A stretch of DNA of 64,000 nucleotides, taken from contig CAWFCL010000004.1 in the NCBI GenBank assembly GCA_963814365.1, forward strand, positions 1,311,432-1,375,431, given 5' to 3'. Source of the DNA: an uncultured Actinomycetes bacterium. GTDB taxonomy: Bacteria > Actinomycetota > Thermoleophilia > RBG-16-64-13. Positions 43,731 through 63,268 of this stretch are shown one piece after another; within the stretch, counting starts at the first letter, position 1, and each line of letters begins with the position of its first letter. The translations under genes and the position numbers were made by a program. The notes beneath the pieces were generated by a model, which was given only the letters and a program-made list of their open reading frames with translations, was not told where the DNA came from and searched no databases.

Positions 43731-43770
43731 ATCCCCTCTCGTAGTTGTACGACGTGACCTCGATGCGGGT

Positions 43771-46789: not shown

Positions 46790-47868
46790 CAGCCATTGGC
46801 ATGGTGGCGCCATGAACGTCGAGGCAAGACCTACGGAACCACCGGCGGTGGCGACAAGGTCGACGAGTACACGCTGACCACGGGCCACGGCATCGTCGCC
46901 AAGATGATCTCCTACGGCGCCACTCTCACCTGGCTCGAGACTCCCGACCGCCACGGAGACACGCGCCAACCTAGTCCTGGCTCACGCGAACCTCAAGGAC
47001 TACGAGAGACAGCGCGCACTTCTTTGGCGCGACCGTGGGCAGGTATGCCAACCGCATCGCCGGGCGCGTCTTCACGCTAGACGGAGCACACCTACACACT
47101 CGCCCGCAACGAAGCGACCGAACCACCTGCACGGCGGAGTACTAGGCTTCGACAAGACGCGTCTGGCGGGCGGCAGCCTTCGAGACCGGTGACTCGGCCG
47201 GCGTGACCTTCGCTTACACCAGCCTCGACGGAGAAGAGGGCTATCCCGGCACACTGGAGGCCGAGGTCACTTACCGCCTGACGGTGGACGGACGATTGCA
47301 TGTCACGTACTCAGCCGTCACGGACGTGGCCACCCACGTGAACCTGACCAATCACTCGTACTTCAATCTTGCAGGACACTCTTCGGGCGACGTGCTTGCG
47401 CAAGAACTGGAGCTGGACTGCGACGGCTTCTTGCCCGTGGACGACAGCCTGATCCCCACCGGCGAGATGGCCTCCGTCGACGGCACGCCCATGGACTTCC
47501 GCCACTCCAAGCCGATAGGCCGGGACATCGCCGGCCGCGAGAGCGGGTACGGCGAACTCTACGACGTTTGTCTGGTGGTCTGTCCGACAGGCTCCGACCC
47601 TTAGACCGATAGCCCGGGCGTTCGATCCGTGCCTCTGGACGACACCTGGAGATACTCGGTACTCAGCCCGGCATACAGCTCTATACAGGCAACCATTTCC
47701 ATGACGTGTCCGGGCATCGACGGCGCCGTGTACCAGAAGCACCAAGGCTTCGCCCTAGAGACCCAGCACTTCCCAGACTCTCCCAACCAGCCCGCTTTTC
47801 CGTCCACCCTCCTCCGACCCGGCGAGCACTACTTCGAAGAGACCGTGTACGAGTTCTGGGCGCGCTGA
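46790..47868 (+). pseudogene. galM: Aldose 1-epimerase (GalM), multiply frameshifted
   Basis: GalM-like segments in three frames: GGDKVDEYTLTTGHGIVAKMISYGATLTWLETPD; TFAYTSLDGEEGYPGTLEAEVTYRL ... NLTNHSYFNLAG ... IPTGEMASVDGTPMDFR; YQKHQGFALETQHFPDSPNQPAFPSTLLRPGEHY. Confidence 0.6.
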
Positions 47869-48814: not shown

Positions 48815-49423
48815 TTGGATACACCATTTTCAATTGACTCCTGCTATGGTCTGCGCTCCGAAGAGCGAAAGGAGTCTCCGATCCCGGTCACGGCCTTTGT
48901 CTGTGTAAACTGTGCGCGTCCTGGCCAGAAGCCTGATTCCGGCGGACGGCCTCGGCCATTGCTGCCTCGATTCTCGTGGCCCTTTCCAGTGCGTGAGGTA
49001 CTCGTGCCCTGCACCGGCCGTATCCAGCCAGAGCACCTCCTCAAGGCCTTCGAATCGGGCTCGGACCTGGTCTGCGCCATCGCCTGCGCCGAAGACAACT
49101 GCCACTACGTAGAGGGCAGCAAGCGCTGCGCCCGGCGCATCGACCATCTGCGCGGCATCCTGGACGAAGTCGGCCTGGGCCGAGAGCGTCTCCTGTTGTT
49201 CAACCTCCCCGGCACCGCGGCCCAGGACACGGCGCTGGGCGCCGACGATGACAAAGGCTGCACCGTGGGGCCCCCGGATGAGCAGATCGAGGCTATCCGC
49301 GACCAGGTGTCACGAGTACTGGAAGGACTGTCCCCCAACCCCCTGCAAACCGGGCCCGAGGTCGAACTGGCCGAAGACCCTTATCTACAAGCGGAAATGG
49401 ATGATGACGACTTCCCAGAGTAA
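48815..49423 (+). CDS. mvhD: MvhD/FlpD-like hydrogenase iron-sulfur subunit (copy 1)
   Basis: AFVCVNCAR ... VPCTGRIQPEHLLKAFESGSDLVCAIACAEDNCHY ... GLGRERLLLF. Confidence 0.7.
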   Translation: MDTPFSIDSCYGLRSEERKESPIPVTAFVCVNCARPGQKPDSGGRPRPLLPRFSWPFPVREVLVPCTGRIQPEHLLKAFESGSDLVCAIACAEDNCHYVEGSKRCARRIDHLRGILDEVGLGRERLLLFNLPGTAAQDTALGADDDKGCTVGPPDEQIEAIRDQVSRVLEGLSPNPLQTGPEVELAEDPYLQAEMDDDDFPE

Positions 49424-50270
49424 GTTCGCCCAGGCACTGGAATCCGACCGCCTCGTGCTAACGGCCGACTGCTACGCACCGCACAGCGGCGACGCGGGCG
49501 ACGTCAAGGCGCTCGCTGCAGCGCTGCCCTCCGAGTCTGGACGCGGTGGTGGTGGCCGAGAATCCCGACGGCATCTACGGCTCGGCTTTGGCTTGTGCCG
49601 CTCTGCTGGTTGGTGAAGGCCGCCAGGCGGTGGTCACCATGTCCACCCGCGACCGCAACCGCATCGCGTTGGAGAGCGACGCCTTGGGCGCCTCGGCCCT
49701 GGGTGTGGGCGCTGTGCTCTGCCTCAGTGGCAACCATCAGTCTCTGGGCGCCTGCCCGCAGGCGGGGTCGGCCTATGACATCGACTCTACTCAGCTCCTG
49801 CGCATCGTCAGCAGACTGGAGCTCCCCAGCATGCTTCTGGGAGCCATAGCGCACCCCCACCAGACCCCGGTGGAGCTCAACCTCATCAAGCTCAAGAAGA
49901 AGATCTCGGCCGGCGCCGGATTCGTACTCACACAGCCGGTGTTCGACCTCGACGTGTTCGAGGGTTGGATGAAGGCCGTGCGGGCGCTCAAGCTGCAGCA
50001 GCAGGCTCCCATCATCGCGAGCGTCCTACCCATCGCCACCGTCGAGCAGGCCGAGACCCTGCAAGGACAACAACACTACGGTCCGCTGGGCGACACCGTG
50101 GTGGCCCGCATCTCGGGCGCGTCGGATGTCGCCGCCAGGAGGGTGTGGCCCTGGCGGCCGAGATGGCCTCCAAGCTCAAGACTATTGAGGGTGTACGTGG
50201 CGTCAACATCCTGTGCGGGGGCGATGCGACGCTGGCCGGCGAGGTGATCAAGGCAGCAGGCCTGGCTTAG
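49401..50270 (+). pseudogene. metF: Methylenetetrahydrofolate reductase MetF (Hdr-associated type) with +1 then -1 frameshifts
   Basis: N-terminal segment in frame 0 (MMTTSQSKFAQALESDRLVLTADCYAPHSGD..AALPS). Middle segment in frame 1 (LDAVVVAENPDGIYGSALACAALLVGEGRQAVVTMSTRDRNRIALESDALGASALGVGAVLCLSGNHQ ...). C-terminal segment back in frame 0 (GVALAAEMASKLKTIEGVRGVNILCGGDATLAGEVIKAAGLA*). Confidence 0.65.
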
Positions 50271-50290
50271 GACGAGAGGACTAGAAGCGC

Positions 50291-51733
50291 ATGCCCGACC
50301 GCTACCATATCCACGCCGTGCCCCTGGCGCCGCACTTCCGCCGCGTCGGCAAGTTCGGCAACGTCGACTGGCGCGAAGACTGCTCGCGTTGCACCAACTG
50401 CGTCAAGTTGCGCTGCATCTACGACGTCTACAAGTACGAGGCCGACTACAACCGTGATCCCCAGACCGCGCTCGAGACGCACGACCAGTGCAAAGCTTGT
50501 CTCTCCTGCGTGATGGGCTGCACCAAGGGTCTCCTAAACATAGCGGTCAACCCTGAGTATCTGGCTATGGGCGATGAGTACTGGAAGCCCGACATCATCG
50601 CGACGACCTGGAACCAGGCGGACACCGGCAAAGTGCCGGTCTCGGGCGCCGGATACCGGGGTCGCTTCTACGGACCCGGCTTCGATTCCATCTGGACCGA
50701 CATGTCCGAGATCGTGCGCCCCACTCGCGACGGCATCCACGGGCGCGAGTTCATCAGCACCTCGGTGGACATCGGCGTCAAACCCATGCGCCTGCGCTTC
50801 GCGGCGGACGGCAACATGATCGACGAACCCAGTCGTTTGGTCGAACTGCAGATCCCGGCCATATTGGACGGACCTTCCTGGCCGGTACTCAGCCCCAATC
50901 TGACCCAGGCCAGGGTCCAAGCCGCCAAGGCATTGGCGTCGCTCGCTGTGGTGCCGGTGGCCGAGGCGGCAGAGCTGCCTGCCGAACTCCTGCCCTGGGT
51001 CGTCCCGCTGCTGGGCCAAGACGCCGGGGTAGGCGGCGAGGTAGACAAGTATCGCGACCTACTGAGCGCGGTGCGCATGGTACAGACGACCGACGGGCTG
51101 AAAGTGAACGAACTGGCCCAGGCGTTACAGGCTGCTCACCCACGACTGGTGATCTGCGTCCGTATGGACCTGGCGCCTACTGCCGCCGACCGCGTCGTCG
51201 AGCTCAGTCTCACTGCCGGACTCAAAGTGTTCCAGCTCTGCGCCGACCATCACGGACGCGAACGCCGGGCAGACGGCGGGCCGGGTAGGCACATCAAAGA
51301 CACCATGCGCGAATTGCACGGGCGCCTGGTCACCGCCGGCGTGCGCGACGAGATCACCCTGATAGTATCCGGCGGTATCGCGCTGGCAGAGCACATGGCC
51401 AAGACCATCATCTGCGGAGCCGATCTGGTGGCTGTGGGGACCCCGCTCCTGGTGTCCCTGGGTTGCCGCCTCTGCGACGACAGAGAACGCTGCGTGACCG
51501 AGGGCCGTTGCCCCGCCCGCTTGGACGATGCGCAACTCGACTACGCTACTCAGCGCCTGGTAAACATGTTCGGATCATGGCACAGCCAACTACTGGAGTT
51601 GTTGGGAGCCATGGGCATCCGCGAAGTCCGCCGTCTGCGCGGAGAAGTCGGACGGGCGATGTTCCTAGAAGATATCGAGGCCGACGCCTTTGGCGACCTG
51701 GACCACATCGCGCCGACCGAGGTGTGCTCATGA
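50291..51733 (+). CDS. Glutamate synthase-related protein, divergent GltB FMN/Fe-S-domain-like, with N-terminal ferredoxin-like Cys motifs
   Basis: CxxCxxC(x)nC at the N-terminus. C-terminal IVSGGIALAEHMAKTIICGADLVAVGT..LGCRLC....C.. pattern of the GltB FMN barrel. No canonical YGGGMSFGS block. Confidence 0.5.
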   Translation: MPDRYHIHAVPLAPHFRRVGKFGNVDWREDCSRCTNCVKLRCIYDVYKYEADYNRDPQTALETHDQCKACLSCVMGCTKGLLNIAVNPEYLAMGDEYWKPDIIATTWNQADTGKVPVSGAGYRGRFYGPGFDSIWTDMSEIVRPTRDGIHGREFISTSVDIGVKPMRLRFAADGNMIDEPSRLVELQIPAILDGPSWPVLSPNLTQARVQAAKALASLAVVPVAEAAELPAELLPWVVPLLGQDAGVGGEVDKYRDLLSAVRMVQTTDGLKVNELAQALQAAHPRLVICVRMDLAPTAADRVVELSLTAGLKVFQLCADHHGRERRADGGPGRHIKDTMRELHGRLVTAGVRDEITLIVSGGIALAEHMAKTIICGADLVAVGTPLLVSLGCRLCDDRERCVTEGRCPARLDDAQLDYATQRLVNMFGSWHSQLLELLGAMGIREVRRLRGEVGRAMFLEDIEADAFGDLDHIAPTEVCS

Positions 51734-53346
51734 CCACCGACTGGCCCCAGGGACACATCGACCGCGAAGTTCGGCCTGCCCCCGAACGGTACCGGAACGT
51801 CCTTGGCAAGTACAAGGTCAACCGTTCGGCCGATTGCATAGCCTGCGGCAGGTGCGCCCAGGTGTGCGAGCACGGCGTTCATGTGAGACCCGAGGGCTAC
51901 ACCTTCATGCTCCGGCCACAGGACTTCCGCTGCGTCGGCCCTGAGTGCTCCGAATGCGACACCTCCTGCGTAGCCCAATGTCCGCAGAAGGCACTGACCG
52001 TGACGCGCAACTCCTCCGCAGACGCCCTGGGCGATCCGCGCTGGTCCAGCGACCTGATCCTTTCTACCTGGCACCAGGCAGCTACGGGCCATGCAGCCCC
52101 CAAGCACCTGGAGCAGCGCACCGGCGCCTCGGGTGGCGGCTTCGATCGGTTGCGCTTCAAGTTCGAGGTGCCCGACAAGTTCACTCCTCAGCAAAGCGGC
52201 ACGGCTGCGGGCGCGGGCACCGCTGCGGACCCGTCCGGCGAGTCCGCCGTCAGACCCGAGGACGTCGATGTGAGTCTTGACCTCAACCAACGAGGCGACA
52301 ATCGCCCGCAAGTGCACATCGATATACCTGTGTACGGCGGAGGCATGAGCTTTGGCTCGGTGAGCATCCACACCATACTGGGCAAAGCGCGCGCCGCCAC
52401 AGCGTGGAACACCTTCAGTTGCACCGGAGAGGGTGGCTATCACGACCGACTGCGCCCCTACGACGACCACATGATCACCCAGGTGGCCACGGGACTGTTC
52501 GGCGTGCGCGACGAGACCATCCAGCGCGTGCGCATAGTGGAGTTCAAGTACGCCCAGGGGGCCAAGCCCGGTCTGGGAGGTCACCTACTCGGCGACAAGA
52601 ACACACCGCCTGTGGCGCGCATGCGCGAGGCGGTGGCCGGAAACGCTCTGTTCTCGCCGTTCCCCTTCCACAGCGTCTACTCGGTCGAAGACCACAAGAA
52701 GCATCTGGACTGGATCAAAGAGGTCAACTCCGACGCGCTGGTCAGCGTCAAGGTATCCACCCCCACCGACGTGGACATGGTGGCGGTAGGTAGCTACTAC
52801 GCAGGTGCGCACATCGTGCACCTGGACGGCAGCTACGGTGGTACCGGCGCCGCTCCCGACATCGCCAAGAAGAACATCGCCATGCCTATCGAGTACGCCA
52901 TCCCCAAGGTACACAAGTTCCTGGTGGCTGAGGGGATTCGCGATGAGATCACCCTGATCGCTTCAGGCGGCATCCGCACCGCCTTCGACGCCCTGAAAGC
53001 CATTGCTCTCGGTGCCGACGGTGTGGTGGTCGGTACGGTGGAGATGGTGGCCCTGGGCTGCGTACGCTGCGCCTGCTGCGAGAGCGGGCGGGGCTGTCCG
53101 CGCGGCATCGCGACCACCGACCCCGAGCTCATGCAGCAGATGACCCTGGAGTGGTCTACGCAGAGGATCATCAACCTCTACAACGCCTGGCAGGAGCAGA
53201 TGGTCGAGACGCTCGCCGGCCTGGGCATGAGGTCCATCCGCGAGCTGCGCGGCCGCAGCGACCTGCTCTGCTACGTCACCGACGAGAGCGTAAGCGGCGC
53301 GGGCACCGAGACGCGTGAGCCGGAGATGGCGGAGGTGGCCGAATGA
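51730..53346 (+). CDS. Glutamate synthase large-subunit FMN-binding domain protein (GltB central domain) with N-terminal ferredoxin
   Basis: IPVYGGGMSFGSVS ... KYAQGAKPGLGGHLLG ... HSVYSVEDHKKHLDWIKE ... LIASGGIRTAFDALKAIALGADGVVVGT ... GCVRCACCESGRGCPRGIAT. The start overlaps the upstream stop (ATGA). Confidence 0.75.
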   Translation: MTTDWPQGHIDREVRPAPERYRNVLGKYKVNRSADCIACGRCAQVCEHGVHVRPEGYTFMLRPQDFRCVGPECSECDTSCVAQCPQKALTVTRNSSADALGDPRWSSDLILSTWHQAATGHAAPKHLEQRTGASGGGFDRLRFKFEVPDKFTPQQSGTAAGAGTAADPSGESAVRPEDVDVSLDLNQRGDNRPQVHIDIPVYGGGMSFGSVSIHTILGKARAATAWNTFSCTGEGGYHDRLRPYDDHMITQVATGLFGVRDETIQRVRIVEFKYAQGAKPGLGGHLLGDKNTPPVARMREAVAGNALFSPFPFHSVYSVEDHKKHLDWIKEVNSDALVSVKVSTPTDVDMVAVGSYYAGAHIVHLDGSYGGTGAAPDIAKKNIAMPIEYAIPKVHKFLVAEGIRDEITLIASGGIRTAFDALKAIALGADGVVVGTVEMVALGCVRCACCESGRGCPRGIATTDPELMQQMTLEWSTQRIINLYNAWQEQMVETLAGLGMRSIRELRGRSDLLCYVTDESVSGAGTETREPEMAEVAE

Positions 53347-55985
53347 CCGACTTCGCCGAACGCCTGCTGCGCAGCCGCTCCCAGGTCTACACCGGACCAG
53401 ACATGCCTGCCGCCGACCCAGTCGAAGAGGGCGGCTGCGGCGTCACCGGGTTCACCTGCACCGTCCCCGTCAAGGGCCGGTTCATCTACGAGCCCAGCAA
53501 GCAGATGCAGAACCGCGGCAACGGCAAGGGCGGCGGCATCGCCTGCGCCGGGCTGGTGCCCGAGCAGTTGGGCATCTCCGGGAGGCGCTCGAGAGCCACT
53601 ACCTGCTGCAGATCGCCCTACTGGATCCGGAGTGCCACGCGGAGCTGGAGAAGGAGTTCGTCGCTCCCCCACTTCGACATCGCCCACTCCGAGCGTCAAG
53701 ACCATGTCGACGACCACACCGCTGTCGGCTTGGAGGTGCGCCCCCCGGATGTGCACCGCTACGTAGTGCGGGTCAAGCCCGACGTCCTTGAGGCTTTCGC
53801 AACAGAGGCGGGCTTGCAGGGCTTGTCTCCGCGCGAGCTCGAAGACGAGTTCGTCTGGCGTAACAGCTACAAGCTCAACGACACTTACTATGCCTCGCTG
53901 GGCGAGAAGCGCGCCTTCGTGCTCAGCCACGCCCGCAACCTGCTGATCTTCAAGTGCGTGGGCTACGCCGAGCAGAACGTGGAGTACTACAAGCTGCACG
54001 ACTTCCAGGCACATACCTGGATCGCCCACCAGCGCTATCCGACCAAAGGCCGAGTATGGCACCCAGGCGGCGCCCATCCGTTCATCGGCATGAACGAGGC
54101 CCTGGTACACAACGGCGACTTCGCCAACTACCACTCGGTCAGCGAGTATCTGCGGCAGCGCAACATTCGCCAGCAGTTCCTCACCGACACCGAGGTGGCG
54201 GCGCAGTTGTTCGACCTGTGGGACCGCGTGTACAAGTACCCGCTGGAGTACATCATCGAGGCGTTCGCTCCCACCACCGAGCTGGACTTCGACCAGTTGC
54301 CGCCCGAGAAGCAGACCATTTACAGGCAGATCCAGGCGACGCACGTACACGCGTCGCCCGACGGTCCCTGGTTCTTCATCATCGCCCGCAGCCAGGGAGA
54401 CAGGTTCCAACTCATGGGCATCACCGACACGGCCATGCTCAGGCCGCAGGTGTTCGCGCTCAGTGACAGTGGCGACGTGCAGATAGGCCTTATCTGCAGT
54501 GAGAAGCAGGCCATCGACGCCACGCTGCGCAGCCTGGCCGAGGAAGACCCGCGCTTCTGCCCCGTGGCCGACAAGTACTGGAACGCGCGCGGTGGCTCGT
54601 CCACCGACGGCGGTGCCTTCATCTTCAGCGTCGCGCCCGACGACACCGGCCGCATGCGCCTGACCTGTACCGACAAGTTCGGTCGCGAGGTCAAGAACGC
54701 CTGCGGAGCGGTGCGCTGCGACCTGCCGGTCGAAGAGCTGACCGACGGTGTGCAGGCCACCTGCACGCCCGAGCCGGTCAGTGCCGAAGAGGTGCAAGAG
54801 GAGCTACGCAGGGGCAACACCGACGCCCTGTTCCAGAAGGCCACTGATCCCGCTGCCGGCCTGGGCTCTTGGCCGGCGGACCACCTCCGTCGCTTCTGTG
54901 GCTACTTGCTGGCGGTAGCGGGCGACCCGGCCGCCGCTCCGAGAGTCCGCGCCGCCGGAGTTGAACTACTCACCAAGTTGCACGACCGGCACTACGCCAC
55001 GCACGACAAGCGTCGGGCCACCATCATCCGCGTACTCGAGGACGAGTTGGACCGTCTCTTCGACACCGCCCCGCTGTTCGGCGAGACCGCCAACCGTGGC
55101 TGGCGTCGCGTCACCTGGACGACGCGCGACCGCGTCGCCGCCCCACAGTCGGGTGAAGACACCTTGGTCATCGATGCCGATGGCTTCCCCCCCGAGGGCG
55201 ACGACTGTGACGCAGTGCTCCTGCGCGCGGCCTACCGCAAGGGCTGGAAGAAGTTCATCGTCTACCGTCTGCGTGGCCAACGCTTCCACGGCGCCGGACT
55301 GGGCGCAGCCACTGATGGCGTGCGCATCGACCTCTACGGCTCCAATGGTGACTACGCGGCCAGCGGCATGGACGGGCTGGAGATGCACATCCACGGCAAT
55401 GCTCAGGACCAGGTGGCGCAGATAGCCAAGCGCGGCAAACTGGTCATCTACGGGGATGTCGGGCAGACCTTCATGTACGGCGCCAAGGGCGGCGAGGTGT
55501 TCGTCCTGGGCAACGGCGCCGGGCGCCCACTCATCAACGCCGTGGGCCGGCCCCGCGTGGTCATCAACGGCACCTGCTTGGACTTCCTGGCCGAATCCTT
55601 CATGGCCGGCAACCCGCTCAACGGCGGCGGTTTCGTGATCCTGAACGGCATCGAGTTCGACGAGAACGGACGAATGGTGCCACAGGCCAGCCCCTACCCT
55701 GGCAGCAACCTGTTCTCGCTGGCCAGTGGAGGCGCTATCTACATACGCGACCCCGAGCGCAAGGTGGTCGATGGCCAGCTAAACGGCGGTGTGCTCTCTC
55801 CGCTCGACGATAAGTCTTGGCGACTGGTCCGCAGCTACCTGGACGAGAACGAGCGCTTGTTCGGCATCAAGGTGCAAGACCTGCTCACCGTCGATGGTGT
55901 GGTCCGCTCCCCCCAAGACGTGTACCGCAAAGTCACCGCCGTCTCGCTGGCAGTCTTGGCCGCCGGCGCCAAGGAGAAGAAGTGA
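53343..55985 (+). CDS. Glutamate synthase large-subunit-like: class-II amidotransferase domain plus C-terminal GXGXG domain
   Basis: GGCGVTGF ... NRGNGKGGGIA ... IAHQRYPTKG Ntn-amidotransferase pattern. C-terminal YGSNGDYAASGMDGLEMHIHGNAQDQVAQIAKRGKLVIYGDVGQTFMYGAKGGEVFVLGNGAGRPLINAVGRP (GXGXG). A roughly 30-aa extension precedes the nucleophile Cys. Confidence 0.75.
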   Translation: MTDFAERLLRSRSQVYTGPDMPAADPVEEGGCGVTGFTCTVPVKGRFIYEPSKQMQNRGNGKGGGIACAGLVPEQLGISGRRSRATTCCRSPYWIRSATRSWRRSSSLPHFDIAHSERQDHVDDHTAVGLEVRPPDVHRYVVRVKPDVLEAFATEAGLQGLSPRELEDEFVWRNSYKLNDTYYASLGEKRAFVLSHARNLLIFKCVGYAEQNVEYYKLHDFQAHTWIAHQRYPTKGRVWHPGGAHPFIGMNEALVHNGDFANYHSVSEYLRQRNIRQQFLTDTEVAAQLFDLWDRVYKYPLEYIIEAFAPTTELDFDQLPPEKQTIYRQIQATHVHASPDGPWFFIIARSQGDRFQLMGITDTAMLRPQVFALSDSGDVQIGLICSEKQAIDATLRSLAEEDPRFCPVADKYWNARGGSSTDGGAFIFSVAPDDTGRMRLTCTDKFGREVKNACGAVRCDLPVEELTDGVQATCTPEPVSAEEVQEELRRGNTDALFQKATDPAAGLGSWPADHLRRFCGYLLAVAGDPAAAPRVRAAGVELLTKLHDRHYATHDKRRATIIRVLEDELDRLFDTAPLFGETANRGWRRVTWTTRDRVAAPQSGEDTLVIDADGFPPEGDDCDAVLLRAAYRKGWKKFIVYRLRGQRFHGAGLGAATDGVRIDLYGSNGDYAASGMDGLEMHIHGNAQDQVAQIAKRGKLVIYGDVGQTFMYGAKGGEVFVLGNGAGRPLINAVGRPRVVINGTCLDFLAESFMAGNPLNGGGFVILNGIEFDENGRMVPQASPYPGSNLFSLASGGAIYIRDPERKVVDGQLNGGVLSPLDDKSWRLVRSYLDENERLFGIKVQDLLTVDGVVRSPQDVYRKVTAVSLAVLAAGAKEKK

Positions 55986-56569
55986 CAGCGCAATCCACCA
56001 TAGAACTCATCGAGGTGCAAGAGATAGGGTCAACACTGGCCCGCGAAATCGAGCAGCTCTGCGGCTCTTCGCCCCTGGCCTGTCTGCAGTGCGCCAAGTG
56101 CTCCAACGGCTGCCCGGTAGCCGCCCGGACGGGACTCACTCCGCACCAGTTGGTCCGACTACTGCAGACCGGTCAGCGCAAAGCGGCACTCAGCAGCCGC
56201 TTCATCTGGGAGTGTACCTCCTGCCACACCTGCATCACCCGCTGCCCGCAGCAGGTGGACATCTGTGCCATGAACGACGCCTTGCGCGCCCTTAGTCTCC
56301 GCGAAGGGTCAGCGACCGGCAAGTCAGCCGTGCCCACCTTCAACAAGGCCTTCTTGGACTCGGTACGCAAGCGCGGCCGCGTGCATGAGCTGGGTCTGAT
56401 GGCCGTGTTCAAGCTGCGTACCGGACGCTTGCTCGAAGACATGGGCAAAGCCCCCATGATGCTGACCAAAGGCAAGCTGCCGTTGTTCGGGCACCGCATG
56501 AGCGGCCGCCCCGAACGCGAGGGACTGTTCTCCCGTGCGGCCCGTGGACGTCGGGGGACCCGCTCATGA
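55982..56569 (+). CDS. hdrC: Heterodisulfide reductase subunit C-like (HdrC)
   Basis: Two CxxCxxCxxxCP motifs (CLQCAKCSNGCP, CTSCHTCITRCP). GTG start overlaps the upstream stop. Confidence 0.75.
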   Translation: MTAQSTIELIEVQEIGSTLAREIEQLCGSSPLACLQCAKCSNGCPVAARTGLTPHQLVRLLQTGQRKAALSSRFIWECTSCHTCITRCPQQVDICAMNDALRALSLREGSATGKSAVPTFNKAFLDSVRKRGRVHELGLMAVFKLRTGRLLEDMGKAPMMLTKGKLPLFGHRMSGRPEREGLFSRAARGRRGTRS

Positions 56570-57448
56570 AGTACACCTTCTACCCCGGCTGCTCATTGGG
56601 CGCCACAGCCAAAGACTTCTACACCTCCACTCTGTCCATGGCCGACAGGCTGGGCATCGAGCTCACAGAGCTCGAGGATTGGATCTGTTGCGGCTCCACC
56701 GCCGCTCACAACAGCGACCCGATGCTGGCGGACGCGCTGCCTGCTCAGAACCTGCTGGCGGCCAAAGGCGACACCGTGGCCGTGGCCTGCGCCAGCTGCT
56801 ACAGCCGGCTCAAGATGGCCAATCACCACATCGCCAAAGACGCTGAGGTCAGAGCCCAAGTCGCCGAGGTCGTGGGCGCCGACTACGACGGGCACACCCC
56901 CGTGCGACACCTGCTGGAGATCGTCACCGAAGATCTGACGCCTTCAGAGATCGCTACCAAGATCGACCCGTCCCCTTAAGGGACTCAAGGTGGCCTGCTA
57001 CTACGGCTGTCTGCTCTCGCGCCCGCCGGAGATAATGCAGTTCGACGATGCCGAGAACCCCACCATCATGGACCGCCTGCTGGAGACTGCCGGCGCCACC
57101 GTGTTGGACTGGCCGCACAAGACCGAATGCTGCGGCGCCAGCTTCAGCATCACCGACGTCGGCCTGGTGGTGGAGCTCACCGACAAGATCCTGGCCATGG
57201 CCGAGGCCGCCGGCGTGGACTGCATCGCCACCGCCTGCCCTCTCTGCCAGCTCAACCTGGACATGCGGCAGAAGGACGTGCAGGCCAAGCTGGGTCATAA
57301 ATACGATCTGCCCGTCTTCTACTTCACTCAGCTGATGGGCTTGGCCATGGGCTGCTCCCCCAAAGAAGTGGGATTGGAGCGCCTGGTCATAGACCCACGG
57401 CCACTACTAGAAGCCAAAGGACTGCTGAAGGACGAGGCCAGCCGATGA
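56566..57448 (+). CDS. hdrB: Heterodisulfide reductase subunit B-like (HdrB, two CCG domains), interrupted by a stop or +1 frameshift at about 56972
   Basis: MKYTFYPGC ... WICCGS (CCG1), ends ..IDPSP* at 56979. CCG2 (ACYYGCLL ... TECCGAS ... ACPLCQLN) continues in the +1 frame from 56990. Deleting one C from the CCCC run restores ..IDPSLKGLKVACYYGC... Confidence 0.7.
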
Positions 57449-59412
57449 GCGACAACGGCAAGAACATGAGCGACACCGCACGGGTCGACCAGGCCGCCGC
57501 GGCGGCCGCCCAGCCGGGCGCGACCCCCGCCGGCGCGGCCAAAGAGCCCGTGGGCGCCGTCATGGTGTGCGGTGCCGGCATCACCGGCATCCAGGCCTCT
57601 CTGGATCTGGCCGAGAGCGGGTTCAAGGTCTACTTGGTCGATTCTTCGCCGGCCATAGGTGGCCGCATGGCCCAGCTCGACAAGACCTTCCCCACCGGCG
57701 ACTGCGCCATGTGCATCCTGTCGCCCAAGCTGGTGGAGTGCGCACGCAACAAGAACATCGAGATCATCACCATGGCCGATGTCGAGGGCATCTCGGGTGA
57801 GCCGGGCGAGTTCAAGGTCAAAGTCCGACAGAACCCGCGCTTCGTCGACCTGATCAAGTGCAATGCCTGCGGCGACTGCGTCGAGGCCTGTCCCGTCGAC
57901 CTGCCCAATGAGTTCGACCGCAGGCTCGGCACCCGTAAGGCCATCTACCGGGCTTATCCGCAGGCTATCCCCAATGTATTCGCCATCTCCAAGGCCCCGG
58001 GTCGCGCGCCATGCCGCACCGCCTGCCCGGCAGGCATCAACGTGCAGGGCTACGTCGCCCTCATCAGTGCGGGCAAGTTCAAAGAAGCGCACGACCTCAT
58101 CCTGCAGGAGTGCCCGCTGCCGGCAACCTGCGGCCGGGTCTGCCCCGCCCCGTGCGAGACCGCTTGCACCCGGGCACAAGTGGATGAGCCTATCGCCATC
58201 GCCGGCCTCAAATGGTTCGCGTACGAGAAGGGCCGGCCCACCGAACTGCCCGAGAAGCTGCCCGTCCAACACAACGAGAAGGTGGCTATCGTGGGCGGCG
58301 GTCCCGCGGGTCTGAGTTGCGCCCGCGACCTGGCCCAGTACGGCTACGCCACCACCGTCTTTGAGGCTCTGCCCGTGGCGGGCGGCATGCTGCGTGTGGG
58401 CATCCCTGACTATCGCATGCCTCCTGAGGTGCTGCAGCAAGAGATCGACAACATCTGCGCGCTGGGCGTGGACCTGCGCGTGAACCAGCGTTGTGGCACC
58501 GACTTCACTGTCGACGGCCTTCTGGACGACGGGTACAAGGTCGTGTTCCTAGCTCCCGGTCTGCATGCCAGCCTACCGGCTCCCGCCAAGGGCGACGACC
58601 TCGACGGCTGCCTGAAGGCGATCGAGTTCCTGCGTGCCGCCAACCTGGGTGATCCGCTGCCGGTCGGCGACCGAGTCGTGGTCATCGGCGGTGGCGACGT
58701 GGCTTTCGACGCCGCCCGTACGGCCGCACGCCTTACTTCGGGCAGCGGCAAAGCCCCCTCGGTCACCGTGGCCTACCGCCGAACTCGTGGCGAGATGCCT
58801 GCCACCACCGACGAGATCGAAGAAGGTCTCGCCGAAGGCCTCACTATCGAGTACCTGGCCTCTCCCGTGGAGGTGCTGGGCGATGGAGGCAAGGTGCGCG
58901 CCATGAAGTTCCAGCGCTGCCAGCTTGGCGCGCCGGACGAAGGTGGCCGCTGCAAAGCCGAGCCTATCGAGGGCGACTTCTTCGAGATCCCCTGCGACAA
59001 CGTCATCTTTGCCATCGGTCAGGCCATGGTGGACGACTTCATCGCCACCGCCGACGGCGCCACCGTCGACGGTGTGGCTGTCGAGCGCAACGCCATCAAG
59101 GTGGACGCCGGCACCATGATAACCGGCCGACCCGGCGTCTTTGCGGGCGGTGACGCCGCCCCTCAAGGCCCCCTGACCGCCATCCAAGCCATCGCGGCCG
59201 GGCGCAAGGCCGCCGCGAGCATCCACAACTACCTGCGCGGCAAGCAGATCGTCCCGCTGGAACAGGATCGCTGCCCGACGCCGCCCGGCCGACTCCGACC
59301 TGGCCAAGGTCGACTAAAGAGCCCCGCGAGCACCTGTCGGAGCAGCCGGGCGACGAACGCCGGCGCAACTGGGACGAGGTCCGCACCGTGTTCACCGAGG
59401 AGCAGGCCGTAG
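57445..59412 (+). CDS. hdrA: HdrA-like N-terminal FAD/ferredoxin module fused to a GltD/NfnB-like NAD(P)H-FAD oxidoreductase domain (HdrL-like); 3' end out of frame
   Basis: VMVCGAGITGIQASLDLAESGF ... DCAMCILSPKL ... CNACGDCVEACP (HdrA). Then PLPATCGRVCPAPCETAC ... VAIVGGGPAGLSCARDL ... VVIGGGDVAFDAA ... VFAGGDAAPQGPLTAIQAIAAGRKAA (GltD-like). The last ~45 codons are low-complexity. Confidence 0.7.
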   Translation: MSDNGKNMSDTARVDQAAAAAAQPGATPAGAAKEPVGAVMVCGAGITGIQASLDLAESGFKVYLVDSSPAIGGRMAQLDKTFPTGDCAMCILSPKLVECARNKNIEIITMADVEGISGEPGEFKVKVRQNPRFVDLIKCNACGDCVEACPVDLPNEFDRRLGTRKAIYRAYPQAIPNVFAISKAPGRAPCRTACPAGINVQGYVALISAGKFKEAHDLILQECPLPATCGRVCPAPCETACTRAQVDEPIAIAGLKWFAYEKGRPTELPEKLPVQHNEKVAIVGGGPAGLSCARDLAQYGYATTVFEALPVAGGMLRVGIPDYRMPPEVLQQEIDNICALGVDLRVNQRCGTDFTVDGLLDDGYKVVFLAPGLHASLPAPAKGDDLDGCLKAIEFLRAANLGDPLPVGDRVVVIGGGDVAFDAARTAARLTSGSGKAPSVTVAYRRTRGEMPATTDEIEEGLAEGLTIEYLASPVEVLGDGGKVRAMKFQRCQLGAPDEGGRCKAEPIEGDFFEIPCDNVIFAIGQAMVDDFIATADGATVDGVAVERNAIKVDAGTMITGRPGVFAGGDAAPQGPLTAIQAIAAGRKAAASIHNYLRGKQIVPLEQDRCPTPPGRLRPGQGRLKSPASTCRSSRATNAGATGTRSAPCSPRSRP

Positions 59413-62018
59413 CCGAAGCCACACGTTGTCTGGACTGCGGCCTCTGCAGCGAGTGCATGCAGTGCGTCCAGGCCTGCTCGGCCGGAGCTATCTTGCACGA
59501 GCAACAGGCGGAGATACTGGAGATTGAAGCGGGCAGCGTGATCCTTACGCCCGGCTTCGAGGAGTTCCAGGCCACCCGTAGAGGTGAGTTCGGTCTTGGT
59601 CGCTACGCCAACGTCCTCTCGAGCGTACAATTCGAACGCATGCTCTCCGCCGCCGGCCCCACCGCTGGCGAGGTGATGCGCCCCTCTGACGGCGGCGAAG
59701 TCAAGCGCATCGCTTTCGTGCAGTGCGTGGGCAGCCGCGACTCGGCCAAGGGCAATGGCTACTGCTCGTCCATCTGCTGCATGAGTGCCACCAAGGAAGC
59801 TATGGTGGCCTTGGAACACGCTCACGGACACGACTTAGACGTCTCCATCTTCTGTATGGACGTGCGCGCTTTTGGCAAGGAGTTCGACAACTACGTCGAC
59901 AGAGCCCGTGACGAACACGGGGTCAAGTACATCCGGGCCATCCCTTCGCGCCTGGTCGAGGTACCGGGCAGCAAAGACCTGCGCATCCGCTACTTCGCAG
60001 ACGACGGAGCGCAGACCGAGGCCGACTTCGACTTGGTGATCCTGAGTGTGGGCATGCAGGTGCCCGATAGTGTCCGCAAGACCGCGGCGAATCTGGGTAT
60101 GGACTTGAACGAGTTCGGCTTCGCTCAGACCGACCGCTTGACCCCCATGGCCACCTCCAAGCCGGGTCTGTATGTGGCCGGTGCCTTCCAGGAGCCCAAA
60201 GATATCCCCGAGTCGGTGGCTCAGGCTTCCGCGGCGGCCGGCTGCGTCATGGACCAGTTGGCTCCGGCGCGCGGCAATCTCATCAAACAACACGAGTACC
60301 CGTGGGAGCGCGACACCACAGACGAAGAGCCGCGTGTAGGCGTCTTCGTGTGTCACTGCGGCCACAACATCGCTTCGGTCATAGATGTGGAGCACGTCGC
60401 CGAAGAAGCGGCCACTATGTCCAACGTGTGCCACGCCGAGACCAGCATCTACACCTGCTCGGACACGAATCAGCAACACATCCTAGATATGATCAAGGAG
60501 CACCGCCTCAATCGCTTGGTGGTCGCCAGTTGCTCGCCGCGCACACACGAGGCTCTCTTCCAAGAGACCCTGCGCGAGAGCGGCCTGAACCAGTACCTGT
60601 TCGCGATGGCCAACATCCGCGACCAGGGCTCCTGGGTGCACAAGGACGACCCACAGAAGGCGACCGAGAAGGCTGTGGACCTCATGTCCATGGCGGTCGC
60701 CCGCGCGCGGCACCTTAAGGCCCTGCAGACCGGACGTCTGCCGGTGGTCTCGTCAGCCCTGATACTTGGCGGTGGCTTGGCCGGCATGACCGCCGCGCTG
60801 GGCCTGGCCGAGCAGGGCTTCCAGGTCCACTTGGTCGAGAAAAGCGCTGAGCTCGGCGGCCTGCTCCGCAGTGTGCGCACCACTCTAGAAGGCGCCGATG
60901 TGCAGGCATATCTGCGCGATCTGGTGGCCAAAGTGAAGGCCCAGCCCGCCATCAAGGTCTACCTCAACACCACCGCCAAGACCCTTGAAGGTCACGTGGG
61001 CGACTTCCACAGCGTCCTAGGCGTGGCCGGCGAAGAAGTACCGGTAAGACACGGCGTGATCATCCTTGCGACCGGTGGCCAGGAGCGCTCCACCGAACTC
61101 TACTTGCACGGTCGGAATCCGCACGTCATCACTCAGAGCAAGCTCGAAGCGGCGCTGGCCGGCGACAACCTGCCCGAGGAGCTGCGGGGCAAAGAGAGCC
61201 CGACCGTGGTCATGATCCAGTGCGTCGAGAGCCGCAACGCCGAGCACGGTTACTGCAGCCGCGTGTGTTGCTCCGAGGCCATCAAGAACGCTCTGGAGAT
61301 CAAGCGCCGGCTGCCTGATGCCAATGTAGCCATCCTGGGCCGGGATATCCGCACCTACGGATTCCGTGAGCTCGCCTACCGACAGGCCCGCGAGAAAGGC
61401 GTCATGTTCGTCCGCCACGGCGACGGCGCTGAGCCCACCGTCACCGACCAGAACGGCGCACTGCGCGTGCAGGTGCACGACACCACCGGCGGCCAAGACC
61501 TGCTACTGAGTCCGGACCTGTTGGTGCTCAGCGCCGGCATCGCGCCCGCCGAGACCAACCCGGTACTCTCCGGGCAGTTGCGCAGCGCCCTCACCGCCGA
61601 TGGATTCTTCTTAGAGGCACATCCCAAGCTCCGCCCAGTCGACTTAGCCAATGAGGGCGAGTTCGTCATCGGACTCTCTCACTCGCCGCGGTTCATGGAC
61701 GAGACCATCGCCCATGCAATGGCCGCCGTAGGCCGGGCCGCCACCATCCTCTCCAAGCAGTATCTGGAGATTCCCGGTCAGGTCTCGGTGGTCGACCCCA
61801 CCCACTGCGTAGCCTGTGCCACCTGTGTGAAGGTCTGCCCCTACGGCGCACCGCACATCAACGAGGTGGGTAAGGCCCAGATCGAAGGTGCCATGTGCAT
61901 GGGTTGCGGTAGCTGTGTGGCCTCGTGTCCGGCGCGAGCCATCACCCTGCGCAACCAAGAAGACCAGGCGCTCGTCGCCATGCTGGATGAACTCCTAGTG
62001 GAAGGGGTGTCACTGTGA
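59388..62018 (+). CDS. hdrA: HdrA (remainder of the first unit plus a second complete HdrA unit)
   Basis: RCLDCGLC ... CVGSRD ... YCSSICC ... GVFAAGAFQEPKDI (end of unit 1). Then FVCHCGHNI ... CSPRTHE ... ANIRDQGSWVH (HdrA N-domain), ALILGGGLAGMTAALGLAE (FAD), YCSRVCC, CVACATCVKVCP ... CMGCGSCVASCP. Confidence 0.8.
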   Translation: MFTEEQAVAEATRCLDCGLCSECMQCVQACSAGAILHEQQAEILEIEAGSVILTPGFEEFQATRRGEFGLGRYANVLSSVQFERMLSAAGPTAGEVMRPSDGGEVKRIAFVQCVGSRDSAKGNGYCSSICCMSATKEAMVALEHAHGHDLDVSIFCMDVRAFGKEFDNYVDRARDEHGVKYIRAIPSRLVEVPGSKDLRIRYFADDGAQTEADFDLVILSVGMQVPDSVRKTAANLGMDLNEFGFAQTDRLTPMATSKPGLYVAGAFQEPKDIPESVAQASAAAGCVMDQLAPARGNLIKQHEYPWERDTTDEEPRVGVFVCHCGHNIASVIDVEHVAEEAATMSNVCHAETSIYTCSDTNQQHILDMIKEHRLNRLVVASCSPRTHEALFQETLRESGLNQYLFAMANIRDQGSWVHKDDPQKATEKAVDLMSMAVARARHLKALQTGRLPVVSSALILGGGLAGMTAALGLAEQGFQVHLVEKSAELGGLLRSVRTTLEGADVQAYLRDLVAKVKAQPAIKVYLNTTAKTLEGHVGDFHSVLGVAGEEVPVRHGVIILATGGQERSTELYLHGRNPHVITQSKLEAALAGDNLPEELRGKESPTVVMIQCVESRNAEHGYCSRVCCSEAIKNALEIKRRLPDANVAILGRDIRTYGFRELAYRQAREKGVMFVRHGDGAEPTVTDQNGALRVQVHDTTGGQDLLLSPDLLVLSAGIAPAETNPVLSGQLRSALTADGFFLEAHPKLRPVDLANEGEFVIGLSHSPRFMDETIAHAMAAVGRAATILSKQYLEIPGQVSVVDPTHCVACATCVKVCPYGAPHINEVGKAQIEGAMCMGCGSCVASCPARAITLRNQEDQALVAMLDELLVEGVSL

Positions 62019-62545
62019 CGTCGCAGCCGACCCCAGCCCAGGCCGACGCGCCCACCAACGTGCCGCCCTCCGTGGCGCCCGATTGGGAGCCGGAGATGAT
62101 TGCCTTCGCCTGCAACTACTGCGCTTACGCCGCCGCCGACTTGGCCGGTTCCCGTCGCATGCAGTACCCGACCAACGTGCGCATCATCCACGTGCCCTGC
62201 ACCGGCAAGATAGAGATGGAGCACATCCTGGACGCCTTCCTCAAGGGCATAGACGGCATCCTGGTGGCCGGCTGCTTGGAAGGAGGCTGCCACTTCTTGG
62301 AGGGCAATCTACGGGCCCGCAAGCGCACCGACCATATCCGCGAGATGTTGGGCGAGATAGGCGTGGGTCAGGATCGCCTAAGGATGGTCAACCTATCCGC
62401 GGCGGAGGCTCCCACCTTTGTCAGGAGCGTGAAAGAGATGGTCGATACAGTCAAAGCTCTGGGCCCCAGCCCGCTGAAGGGCAGTGCATCGCCGACGGAG
62501 CGCAGTCTGCAGCCCCAGCCATCGGAAAGTGAAGGACAGCAATGA
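62015..62545 (+). CDS. mvhD: MvhD/FlpD-like subunit (copy 2)
   Basis: IAFACNYCAYAAAD ... IIHVPCTGKIEMEHILDAFLKGIDGILVAGCLEGGCHFLEGN. Confidence 0.7.
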   Translation: MTSQPTPAQADAPTNVPPSVAPDWEPEMIAFACNYCAYAAADLAGSRRMQYPTNVRIIHVPCTGKIEMEHILDAFLKGIDGILVAGCLEGGCHFLEGNLRARKRTDHIREMLGEIGVGQDRLRMVNLSAAEAPTFVRSVKEMVDTVKALGPSPLKGSASPTERSLQPQPSESEGQQ

Positions 62546-63210
62546 TAGTCGCCTCCCCCAAGACCGTCACCGAACTCAAGGACCTCATCACGAGCCACAA
62601 GAAAGTCCTCTTCGTGGGCTGCGGCACGTGCGTCACTGTGTGTCTGGCCGGTGGCGAGCGCGAGGTGGGTCTGGCCGGCTATGCCGTCCGCATGGCGCGC
62701 AAGCTGGCGAACCAGCCCGTCGAGATATCCCAGATCACCATAGAGCGCCAATGCGAGAACGAGTTCATCCAAGACTTGGCGGAACCCGCTGTGGAGGTCG
62801 AGGCTATCCTCTCCTTTGGATGTGGAGTGGGTGTGCAGGCCATCGCCGAGAGATTCCCTAACAAGCCGGTCTACGCCGCCCTCAACACTCAGTTTATGGG
62901 TACTCTGGAGGAGCAGGCCGTCTGGACCGAGAAGTGCATGGGCTGTGGCGACTGTGTGCTCGCTGACTTCGGCGGCATCTGCCCGGTCACCCGTTGCGCC
63001 AAGCGCTTGTTGAACGGCCCTTGCGGCGGTTCCACCGAAGACCACTGCGAAGTAGACCCCGACAGGCCCTGCGCGTGGCAACTAATCTATAAGAGGCTCC
63101 GGGGCATAGGTCAGCTAGCCCGCCTTGAAGAAGAGGTGCCACCCAAGGACTGGAGCCCTTCGTGGCACTCCGGAGCCCGCAAGATCGTGCGCAAGGAGCA
63201 CAGGGTCTAG
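62542..63210 (+). CDS. metV: MetV-like Fe-S/zinc-ribbon protein (MTHFR_C family)
   Basis: FVGCGTCVTVC ... CMGCGDCVLADFGGICPVTRCAKRLLNGPCGGS. Confidence 0.6.
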   Translation: MIVASPKTVTELKDLITSHKKVLFVGCGTCVTVCLAGGEREVGLAGYAVRMARKLANQPVEISQITIERQCENEFIQDLAEPAVEVEAILSFGCGVGVQAIAERFPNKPVYAALNTQFMGTLEEQAVWTEKCMGCGDCVLADFGGICPVTRCAKRLLNGPCGGSTEDHCEVDPDRPCAWQLIYKRLRGIGQLARLEEEVPPKDWSPSWHSGARKIVRKEHRV

Positions 63211-63268
63211 TCCTCACACTAGAACGAGATGCAGCCTGCCGGCACCGGTGCTCCCCCAGAGAAGCCCG

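What the first reader, a model, noticed from the sequence alone, without database searches (positions are those of the whole stretch)
57445..62018. Giant HdrL-like HdrA: truncated HdrA + GltD-like domain, then a full second HdrA, with a frame change at the junction
ORF 57445..59412 (frame 1) shows homology through ..AIAAGRKAAASIHNYLRGKQIVPLEQD at about 59270. Frame 0 then carries a GltD/NfnB-like N-terminal signature (ERRRNWDEVRTVFTEEQAVAEATRCLDCG) from about 59355. The ORF-track start is a GTG at 59388 that overlaps the upstream ORF by 25 bp. Either a ~1530-aa fusion protein is broken by a frameshift near 59270-59350, or two HdrA-type proteins are translationally coupled. A tandem HdrA-GltD-HdrA arrangement is itself unusual.
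Basis: seen in the sequence. Interest (0 to 1): 0.55.

Follow-up and report, generated by a model that had tools for sequence, protein, structure and literature searches.

The report
One hdrL gene broken by indels
The two adjacent reading frames are one ordinary, already-described giant HdrL-type flavoprotein gene of about 1,524 codons, interrupted by three single-base insertions or deletions that are most likely sequence-assembly errors, so there is no new gene arrangement here.

Summary
The frame change is real in this sequence. ORF 57445..59412 and ORF 59388..62018 overlap by 25 nt in different frames.

They are two pieces of one gene. A rejoined 1523-aa product matches 120 of 120 best database proteins as single chains of 1437-1548 aa at 95-100% coverage. 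The best is 88% identical.

Against the closest relative's DNA, the only indels in 4.5 kb that are not multiples of three are one missing base near 59265, one missing base near 59283 and one extra base near 59313-59315. The net shift is -1.

The same window holds at least a dozen other frame-breaking indels, in metF, hdrB, a glutamate-synthase-like gene, a GH94-type gene and an aldose epimerase gene. Both halves of hdrL show the same purifying selection. Among relatives, broken hdrL genes occur only in Nanopore-only MAGs, once in this same linker. The break is therefore most likely an assembly artefact; a very recent real mutation is less likely.

An NfnB/GltD-like module sits inside the inserted ferredoxin domain of the first HdrA unit, and the break lies inside that unit. 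The type is known in the literature as HdrL and from the ANME HdrA-NfnB and fused HdrA proteins. Interest is low.

The parts
57445..62018 (+). hdrL, one gene of about 1524 codons once three 1-nt indels are corrected. The ATG at 57445 overlaps the hdrB stop by 4 nt (ATGA), as in the relative L001.
57562..57993 (+). HdrA unit 1, first half: FAD-binding GxGxxG, DCxxC (Cys194/Cys197 of PDB 5ODC) and the first 4Fe-4S motif of the inserted ferredoxin domain. Corresponds to HdrA residues 147-290.
58006..59244 (+). NfnB/GltD-like module: Fer4_20 with two 4Fe-4S clusters, an FAD site GGGPAG and an NAD(P)H site GGGDVA. It is inserted into the ferredoxin domain of unit 1.
59265..59270 (+). Indel 1: one base missing relative to L001. 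The true frame moves from mod 1 to mod 0. This is the only lesion needed to explain the split.
59271..59282 (+). Remnant read in frame mod 0: LPDA (homologs have MPDA/MPEA).
59282..59285 (+). Indel 2: one base missing in a GCC/GCCC run. The true frame moves to mod 2.
59285..59314 (+). Remnant read in frame mod 2: PADSDLAKVD (closest homolog PAESDLAKVA), about 90% identical to L001 at the DNA level.
59313..59315 (+). Indel 3: one extra base (GTCGACTAAAG against GTCG-CCAAGG). It creates TAA in frame mod 2 and returns the true frame to mod 0.
59388..59390 (+). GTG called as the start of ORF2. It is an internal valine codon (GTC in L001), not a conserved start.
59430..60101 (+). HdrA unit 1, second half: second 4Fe-4S motif CLDCGLCSECMQCVQAC and CVGSRD...YCSSICC. 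Corresponds to HdrA residues 289-517.
60306..60842 (+). HdrA unit 2: N-terminal cluster domain (CHCG...CSPR) and the start of the second FAD domain (GGGLAG). It has no DCxxC. Corresponds to HdrA residues 2-175.
61452..62003 (+). HdrA unit 2: end of the FAD domain plus the C-terminal 2x[4Fe-4S] ferredoxin domain. Corresponds to HdrA residues 466-655.
56566..57448 (+). hdrB (two CCG domains), also split, by one extra base near 56965 into ORFs 56566..56979 and 56990..57448.
55982..56569 (+). hdrC-like 2x[4Fe-4S] protein.
62015..62545 (+). mvhD (FlpD family), directly downstream with a 4-nt overlap.
62542..63210 (+). metV-like protein (DUF5981, methylene-THF reductase C-terminal-like).
48860..55985 (+). 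Upstream part of the conserved cluster: mvhD (48860-49420), metF (49401-50267, read in frames 3/1/3) and three glutamate-synthase-large-subunit-like genes (50291-51733, 51730-53346, 53343-55985). The last has a -1/+1 indel pair at 53576/53663.

Best explanation
Positions 57445-62018 encode a single HdrL-type protein of about 1524 residues.

Architecture, in order along the chain:
- the first half of an HdrA flavin domain;
- an NfnB/GltD-like NAD(P)H:FAD:2x[4Fe-4S] module, inserted between the two cluster motifs of HdrA's inserted ferredoxin domain;
- the second half of that HdrA unit;
- a second HdrA unit, which carries the N-terminal cluster domain and the C-terminal ferredoxin domain but lacks the inserted ferredoxin domain.

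The two units are complementary. Unit 1 has the DCxxC cysteines and no N-terminal domain; unit 2 is the reverse. They probably form an intramolecular pseudo-dimer like the HdrA homodimer (inferred).

Probable function (inferred from context and from the Moorella MetFV-HdrABC-MvhD precedent, not shown): with HdrB, HdrC, MvhD and MetF/MetV encoded alongside, the protein takes electrons from NAD(P)H at the NfnB-like module. It passes them to the HdrA flavin for bifurcation or confurcation between HdrBC or methylene-THF reduction and a low-potential carrier.

Why it looks like two ORFs: the linker after the NfnB-like module carries three one-base indels (two missing, one extra, net -1). These are most likely consensus errors of an error-prone, long-read-type metagenome assembly, not a feature of the organism.
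For: Single gene:
- 120 of 120 best homologs are single chains of 1437-1548 aa covering 95-100% of the rejoined protein; the best is 88% identical.
- In the genome loci whose open frame was measured, every short-read relative has one open frame across the junction (frame check across all 81 loci).
- The solved StnC, Bfu-NfnA and 9BOV chains align continuously across the junction, query 145/188 to 673/674.

Placement of the lesions:
- In the MAFFT DNA alignment of the whole gene against L001 (82% identity), the only indels not a multiple of 3 are at 59265 (-1), 59283 (-1) and 59313 (+1).
- Remnants of the homolog's sequence are visible in all three frames.

Artefact rather than biology:
- The same window has frame-breaking indels in metF (2), the GATase/GXGXG gene (a -1/+1 pair that leaves 29 out-of-frame codons while the other frame keeps the homolog's sequence) and hdrB (1). 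That makes 8 in 14.4 kb.
- A GH94-type gene is split at least 3 times.
- An aldose epimerase gene runs through frames 1, 2, 0 and back to 1.
- The parts of hdrL upstream and downstream of the break have the same substitution pattern by codon position, 0.075/0.063/0.375 against 0.100/0.052/0.389. All cofactor motifs are intact.
- Among relatives, frame-switched fused-type hdrL genes occur in 6 of 14 MFD MAG loci and in 0 of 57 other loci (Fisher p = 2e-5). The MFD MAGs are Nanopore-only assemblies made with Flye and one round of Medaka (PMC12313526).
- One of these, L045, is broken in this same Pro/Ala-rich, poly-C-rich linker but shifted in the opposite direction.

Known architecture.
Against: - The origin and sequencing technology of the window are unknown, and no reads can be inspected.
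- The source contig and identical proteins were not found in any collection, so there is no independent copy of this exact locus.
- The indels are clustered (three in 49 nt; pairs within about 90 nt elsewhere), and not all sit in homopolymers. This fits a locally poor consensus but is not proof of it.
- dnaE (4.5 kb) is a single open frame, so the errors, if they are errors, are unevenly spread.
- A naturally split version of this enzyme exists in other phyla, so a split protein is not impossible in principle.
Confidence: 0.8

Rival explanations
1. The indels are genuine recent mutations. Either hdrL, together with hdrB and metF in the same operon, is a fresh pseudogene in a cluster released from selection, or the organism tolerates HdrL made as two polypeptides that reassemble.
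For: - Several genes of the same operon are hit: metF, hdrB and hdrL.
- Essential dnaE is intact.
- Nature does build this enzyme from separate polypeptides, split at the same ferredoxin-domain site, in Planctomycetota, Geobacterales and Gemmatimonadota.
- ORF2 could in principle restart at GTG 59388, which has a GAGG 8 nt upstream.
Against: - Unrelated genes 10-35 kb away (the GH94-type gene and the aldose epimerase gene) are broken in the same way.
- No premature stop substitutions accompany at least 8 indels in the cluster, and codon-position selection is identical on both sides of the break.
- The out-of-frame fragments keep 78-88% identity to the intact relative, so any decay would have to be extremely recent in many genes at once.
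- All close relatives are fused.
- Broken copies elsewhere track the sequencing technology.
Confidence: 0.17
2. The frame change is a designed feature: either programmed -1 ribosomal frameshifting (for example at CUA_AAG, 59313-59319), or two translationally coupled HdrA-type genes as the normal state of this family.
For: - The net shift is -1.
- An A_AAG tetranucleotide sits exactly where the downstream frame becomes homologous.
- The two ORFs overlap by 25 nt.
Against: - There is no X_XXY_YYZ slippery heptamer anywhere in the overlap zone.
- The frameshift is absent from all 120 closest homologs and from the closest DNA relative.
- The homolog's sequence is preserved in three different frames across 49 nt, which a single programmed shift cannot read.
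- The only other relative broken in this linker shifts in the opposite direction.
- The GTG is not conserved.
Confidence: 0.02

Closest known systems
HdrL of Desulfobacterium autotrophicum HRM2 and Syntrophobacter fumaroxidans (Strittmatter 2009, PMC2702500; Sedano-Nunez 2018, PMC5947623)
   Same: A large soluble HdrA-like protein fused to a glutamate-synthase-small-subunit/NfnB-like NAD(P)H-binding module. It is followed by an mvhD gene and sits next to hdrBC-type genes.
   Different: - No selenocysteine here.
- The host is a high-GC Actinomycetota-like lineage, not a sulfate reducer.
- The neighbours are metF/metV and glutamate-synthase-like genes, not dsr or fdh genes.
- Direct sequence comparison with D. 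autotrophicum HdrL1-3 was not done.
ANME-1 HdrA9-11 (NfnB-like insertion in the inserted ferredoxin domain) and fused HdrA3/4 (Chadwick 2022, PMC9012536)
   Same: It has the same two design features. An NfnB-like insert of about 500 aa interrupts the inserted ferredoxin domain. Two HdrA units are fused, and the presence of the N-terminal domain and of Cys197 is complementary between them.
   Different: Here both features occur in one chain. The unit order is reversed: the unit without the N-terminal domain comes first. The protein is bacterial, not archaeal.
HdrA of MvhAGD-HdrABC (PDB 5ODC, 8RVU)
   Same: All four HdrA domains are recognisable at E about 1e-178 overall. The FAD and cluster motifs are conserved.
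   Different: The domains are spread over two non-identical units in one chain instead of a 654-aa homodimer. An extra NAD(P)H-binding module is present.
NfnB / NfnI large subunit / GltD (PDB 5JCA_L, 4YLF_B, 6S6S_G)
   Same: Residues 188-600 align end to end (E 1e-75). They carry Fer4_20 and Pyr_redox_2 above the Pfam cut-offs, plus FAD and NAD(P)H glycine motifs.
   Different: It is a domain inside HdrA, not a free subunit, and no NfnA partner gene is nearby.
StnC (8OH5_C), Bfu-type NfnA (9N5U_A) and 9BOV_A
   Same: They contain the same cassette: a ferredoxin motif, an NfnB-like module, a linker and an RCLxCGxC motif. This aligns continuously across the position of the window's break.
   Different: The cassette is attached to formate-dehydrogenase-like or molybdopterin-type domains rather than to HdrA.
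MetFV-HdrABC-MvhD methylene-THF reductase of Moorella thermoacetica (reviewed in PMC5861303; similar clusters in Actinobacteria, PMC7325909)
   Same: The gene set hdrC, hdrB, hdrA-type, mvhD, metV and metF lies in one cluster, with NADH as the proposed donor.
   Different: Here the HdrA-type subunit is the 1524-aa HdrL form. Three glutamate-synthase-large-subunit-like genes lie inside the cluster. No biochemistry is available.

Membership tests
HdrL (large HdrA-like / GltD-like fusion) | HdrA-type FAD domain with its Fe-S motifs | tested here: met
   phmmer against PDB HdrA 5ODC/8RVU gives E about 1e-178 in four collinear pieces. The motifs GAGITG, DCAMC and CVGSRD..YCSSICC are present.
HdrL (large HdrA-like / GltD-like fusion) | A fused NAD(P)H-binding glutamate-synthase-small-subunit/NfnB-like module in the same polypeptide | tested here: met
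   Pfam Fer4_20 (65.6 bits) and Pyr_redox_2 (112.6 bits) in ORF1. PDB NfnI-L gives 2.8e-75 over residues 188-598. All close homologs carry it in one chain.
HdrL (large HdrA-like / GltD-like fusion) | An mvhD gene directly downstream | tested here: met
   FlpD family, 162.8 bits, at 62015-62545, overlapping the hdrL stop by 4 nt.
HdrL (large HdrA-like / GltD-like fusion) | Sequence-level relatedness to D. autotrophicum HdrL1-3 themselves | not tested
   Those sequences were not retrieved. Membership rests on the published domain definition.
Canonical HdrA (about 650 aa, homodimeric) | N-terminal domain, FAD domain with inserted ferredoxin domain and C-terminal ferredoxin domain, all in one unit | tested here: not met
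   Unit 1 lacks the N- and C-terminal domains. Unit 2 lacks the inserted ferredoxin domain and DCxxC.
Programmed -1 ribosomal frameshift | A slippery X_XXY_YYZ heptamer at the shift site | tested here: not met
   None in 59155-59412 in the upstream frame.
Programmed -1 ribosomal frameshift | The frameshift is conserved in homologs | tested here: not met
   120 of 120 homologs are unshifted, and L001 DNA is unshifted.
Two translationally coupled genes | A conserved start codon and ribosome-binding site for the downstream gene, and no homology across the junction | tested here: not met
   The GTG is GTC in L001 and the residue varies (V/G) among homologs. Homology runs straight through the junction.
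MetFV-HdrABC-MvhD-type complex | Co-clustered metF, metV, hdrB, hdrC and mvhD with the HdrA-type gene | tested here: met
   tblastn of the L001 cluster proteins onto the window. The cluster is conserved in most of 81 loci.
MetFV-HdrABC-MvhD-type complex | NADH-dependent methylene-THF reduction, or bifurcation activity | not testable with these tools
   This needs a biochemical assay.

The most novel reading that the evidence does not exclude
The three indels are real, and this organism makes HdrL as two polypeptides. The first would be the HdrA unit-1 first half plus the NfnB-like module. The second would be the rest, restarted near GTG 59388. They would reassemble across the inserted ferredoxin domain. 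The natural three-gene NuoE/F/G-type variants in Planctomycetota and Geobacterales show that a split at this very site is structurally tolerated.
Probability: 0.05. Interest if true: 0.3.

Novelty: already known. Interest (0 to 1): 0.1.

Why it matters
It matters mainly as a quality flag. This window carries roughly one frame-breaking indel per 1.5-2 kb in several genes. Split ORFs, 'fusions' and 'overlaps' elsewhere in it should not be read as biology until the sequence is polished or checked against reads.

The gene itself, once repaired, is a normal member of the widespread HdrL-type NAD(P)H-linked HdrA family, inside a conserved hdrCB-hdrL-mvhD-metV cluster.

The more interesting biology lies outside this finding. 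It is the conserved association with glutamate-synthase-like genes, and the swap of the NfnB-like module for a NuoEFG-like module at one insertion point.

Tried and rejected
- Exact-sequence look-ups of ORF1, ORF2 and MetV in the assembly collection returned nothing on record, so the source contig and its technology could not be identified.
- Two exact-pattern scans of metagenome contigs, with the conserved 26-mer upstream of the junction in degenerate and then plain form, gave no hits. This was so even though L001, a JGI contig, contains the motif.
- The genome-contig scan found no relative closer than 80%.
- Programmed frameshifting: there is no slippery heptamer. Rejected.
- A real start at GTG 59388: the SD-like GAGG lies within conserved codons and the GTG is not conserved. 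Rejected.
- A GC3 frame plot used as a window-wide frameshift detector was too noisy to use. It was replaced by Pfam domain-continuity checks and comparison with L001.
- I looked for a common sequence context for the indels (homopolymer, GATC, CGAC) by eye only. The result was inconclusive and is not claimed.
- Structure prediction was not run. The protein exceeds the 1200-aa limit, and the PDB sequence mapping already resolved the domain order.
Full report
**1. Observation**

The window has ORF 57445..59412 (655 aa, start position mod 3 = 1) and a GTG-initiated ORF 59388..62018 (876 aa, mod 3 = 0). They overlap by 25 nt. Translating the three frames across 59190-59450 gives the following:
- The upstream frame runs sensibly to ...IHNYLRGKQIVPLEQD and then into an Arg/Pro/Ser-rich tail.
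- The downstream frame is open from at least 59190 and reads ...KEPREHLSEQPGDERRRNWDEVRTVFTEEQAVAEATRCLDCG.
- The third frame reads RPADSDLAKVD followed by TAA.

**2. One gene or two**

I joined 57445-59268 to 59271-62015 into a 1523-aa test protein and searched 5.8 billion proteins.
- All 120 best hits are single polypeptides of 1437-1548 aa covering 95-100% of the query.
- The best, P0001, is 88% identical and 1503 aa long.
- An alignment of the 30 best shows homology straight through the junction.

At the DNA level, the short-read genome loci whose open frame I measured each have one open frame of about 1470-1820 codons across the junction. A tblastn frame check over all 81 loci agrees. That criterion is not met.

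**3. Exactly what is wrong**

P0001 lies on a 28.8-kb JGI contig, L001. That contig has the same gene order as the window, and both its hdrB (293 aa) and its hdrL (1503 aa) are intact. Window 48836-63212 aligns to it at 82% nucleotide identity.

In a global alignment of the whole 4.5-kb hdrL gene, two indels near the 5' end are in frame. The only others are:
- one base missing at about 59265;
- one base missing at about 59283;
- one extra base at about 59313-59315.

The ancestral reading path is therefore:
- frame 1 to LEQD;
- frame 0 for LPDA;
- frame 2 for RPADSDLAKVD (P0001 has RPAESDLAKVA);
- frame 0 again from KEPREH onward.

The net shift is -1. The corrected protein would be about 1524 aa.

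**4. Not a designed feature**

- There is no X_XXY_YYZ slippery heptamer in the overlap zone.
- GTG 59388 is GTC in L001, and the residue is not conserved among homologs.
- The GAGG 8 nt upstream is part of the conserved Trp-Asp/Glu-Glu-Val codons.
- A single programmed shift could not read homologous sequence that lies in three frames.

**5. Artefact or real mutation**

The window is full of similar lesions. Against L001:
- metF is read in frames 3/1/3, with +4 at 49533 and +2 at 50130.
- The GATase/GXGXG gene has a -1/+1 pair at 53576/53663. This leaves 29 nonsense-looking codons in the called ORF, while the other frame preserves EALESHYLLQIALLDPECHAELEKEFV as in L001.
- hdrB has an extra base at about 56965 that splits it into two CCG-domain ORFs.

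That is eight frame-breaking indels in 14.4 kb. Elsewhere in the window:
- A large GH94-type gene (21934-27108) has its Pfam domains cut at consecutive profile positions across different frames at least three times.
- An aldose-1-epimerase-like gene passes through frames 1, 2, 0 and back to 1.

There is no sign of decay otherwise:
- Differences from L001 per site at codon positions 1/2/3 are 0.075/0.063/0.375 upstream of the break and 0.100/0.052/0.389 downstream.
- Every cofactor motif is intact and conserved.
- The out-of-frame fragments of the other genes keep 73-88% identity.

Among relatives, frame-switched fused-type hdrL genes are found in 6 of 14 loci from 'MFD...bin' MAGs and in 0 of 57 other loci (Fisher p = 2e-5). 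The MFD MAGs are Nanopore-only Flye assemblies polished with one round of Medaka (PMC12313526). One of them, L045, is broken in this same linker, which there is rich in C-runs, but shifted in the opposite direction.

I conclude that the break is most likely a consensus error (about 0.8). A very recent real mutation is the main alternative (about 0.17). I could not identify the source of the window or find an independent copy. Reads are needed for proof.

**6. What the gene is**

Pfam and a sequence search of solved structures give this map, in numbering of the rejoined protein:
- Residues 40-183 match HdrA 147-290: FAD site, DCxxC and the first cluster motif of the inserted ferredoxin domain.
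- Residues 188-600 match NfnB / NfnI-L / GltD end to end.
- Residues 662-885 match HdrA 289-517.
- Residues 954-1132 match HdrA 2-175: the N-terminal cluster domain and a second FAD site.
- Residues 1336-1519 match HdrA 466-655: the C-terminal ferredoxin domain.

So the NfnB-like module is inserted within the inserted ferredoxin domain of the first HdrA unit, and the break lies inside that unit. It does not lie between 'a truncated HdrA+GltD' and 'a full second HdrA'.

The weak Fer4_20-like 'signature' in ORF2 (19.9 bits, below the cut-off) is the linker plus the second ferredoxin motif. The same cassette is continuous in the solved StnC, Bfu-NfnA and 9BOV chains.

Unit 1 has DCxxC (Cys194/197 of 5ODC) but no N-terminal domain. 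[quoted passage not shown]

**7. Comparison with what is known**

[quoted passage not shown] - Chadwick et al. described a roughly 500-aa NfnB-like insertion in the inserted ferredoxin domain of ANME-1 HdrA.
- The same study described fused or tandem HdrAs in which the N-terminal domain and Cys197 are complementary between units, suggesting a heterodimer-like arrangement (PMC9012536).

The window's protein combines these known features, with the unit order reversed.

The cluster context (hdrC, hdrB, hdrL, mvhD, metV, with mvhD and metF upstream) parallels the MetFV-HdrABC-MvhD methylene-THF reductase of Moorella, for which NADH is the donor (PMC5861303; PMC7325909). The mechanism I propose is NAD(P)H oxidation at the NfnB-like FAD, electron transfer through the ferredoxin clusters to the HdrA flavin, and bifurcation or confurcation between HdrBC or MetFV and a low-potential carrier. 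It is an inference from these precedents and is not shown here.

**8. Verdict**

The frame change is real in the sequence, but it breaks one ordinary gene and is most probably an assembly artefact. The architecture is already known and widespread. Interest is low.

Noticed in passing
window 21934-27108 (+): A large GH94-type gene (Glycoamylase, two GH94 supersandwich domains and a GH94 catalytic domain, like a cyclic beta-1,2-glucan synthase or phosphorylase) is cut into at least four frames. The Pfam profile coordinates continue across ORF boundaries: supersandwich 16-114 then 107-210, catalytic 1-152 then 156-420.
   Followed up: partly
window 47146-47868 (+): An aldose-1-epimerase-like gene has an in-frame stop at 47602. 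The conserved ...LEILGTQPGIQLYTGN... motif lies in another frame. The path is frame 1, then 2, then 0, then 1, within about 150 nt.
   Followed up: partly
window 49401-50267, 53576/53663, ~56965: metF is read in three frame segments. The GATase/GXGXG gene has a compensated -1/+1 pair that gives 29 out-of-frame codons. hdrB is split by one extra base. All were judged against the intact relative L001.
   Followed up: yes
window 48860-63210; L001 1384-15731; most of L002-L081: A ten-gene cluster is conserved across Actinomycetota, Acidobacteriota (Bryobacteraceae), Planctomycetota, Myxococcota, Nitrospirota, Desulfobacterota, Omnitrophota, Hydrogenedentota and Gemmatimonadota. It runs mvhD, metF, three glutamate-synthase-large-subunit-like genes (FMN domain twice, then GATase+GXGXG), hdrC, hdrB, hdrL, mvhD, metV. 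I found no paper describing the glutamate-synthase-like association.
   Followed up: partly
L072 6502-12613; L060 6030-12604; also L057, L061, L062, L064, L066, L074, L077: A natural three-gene variant lacks the NfnB-like insert. Gene 1 is the first half of HdrA unit 1 fused to a NuoE-like 2Fe-2S domain. Gene 2 is NuoF-like (FMN/NADH). Gene 3 is a NuoG-N-like domain fused to the rest of unit 1 plus unit 2. The split is at the same ferredoxin-domain site. The NAD(P)H-input module therefore appears swappable at one insertion point.
   Followed up: partly
L045 ~9930-10060; L018/L022 (protein residues ~349-364); L021, L035, L039: Several Nanopore-only MFD MAGs have frameshifted hdrL genes. L045 is broken in the same linker as the window. 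L018 and L022 are broken at the same position as each other.
   Followed up: partly
window 1214-5758 (+): dnaE (DNA polymerase III alpha) is a single 1514-codon open frame. About 300 residues between the PHP domain (50-243) and the polymerase core (550-842) match no Pfam family.
   Followed up: no
window 14419-15178 (-): A PIN-domain toxin and MazE/AbrB-type antitoxin pair.
   Followed up: no
window 42594-43811 (-): Two tandem paralogous secreted or lipoprotein genes with Thr-rich linkers and no Pfam match.
   Followed up: no
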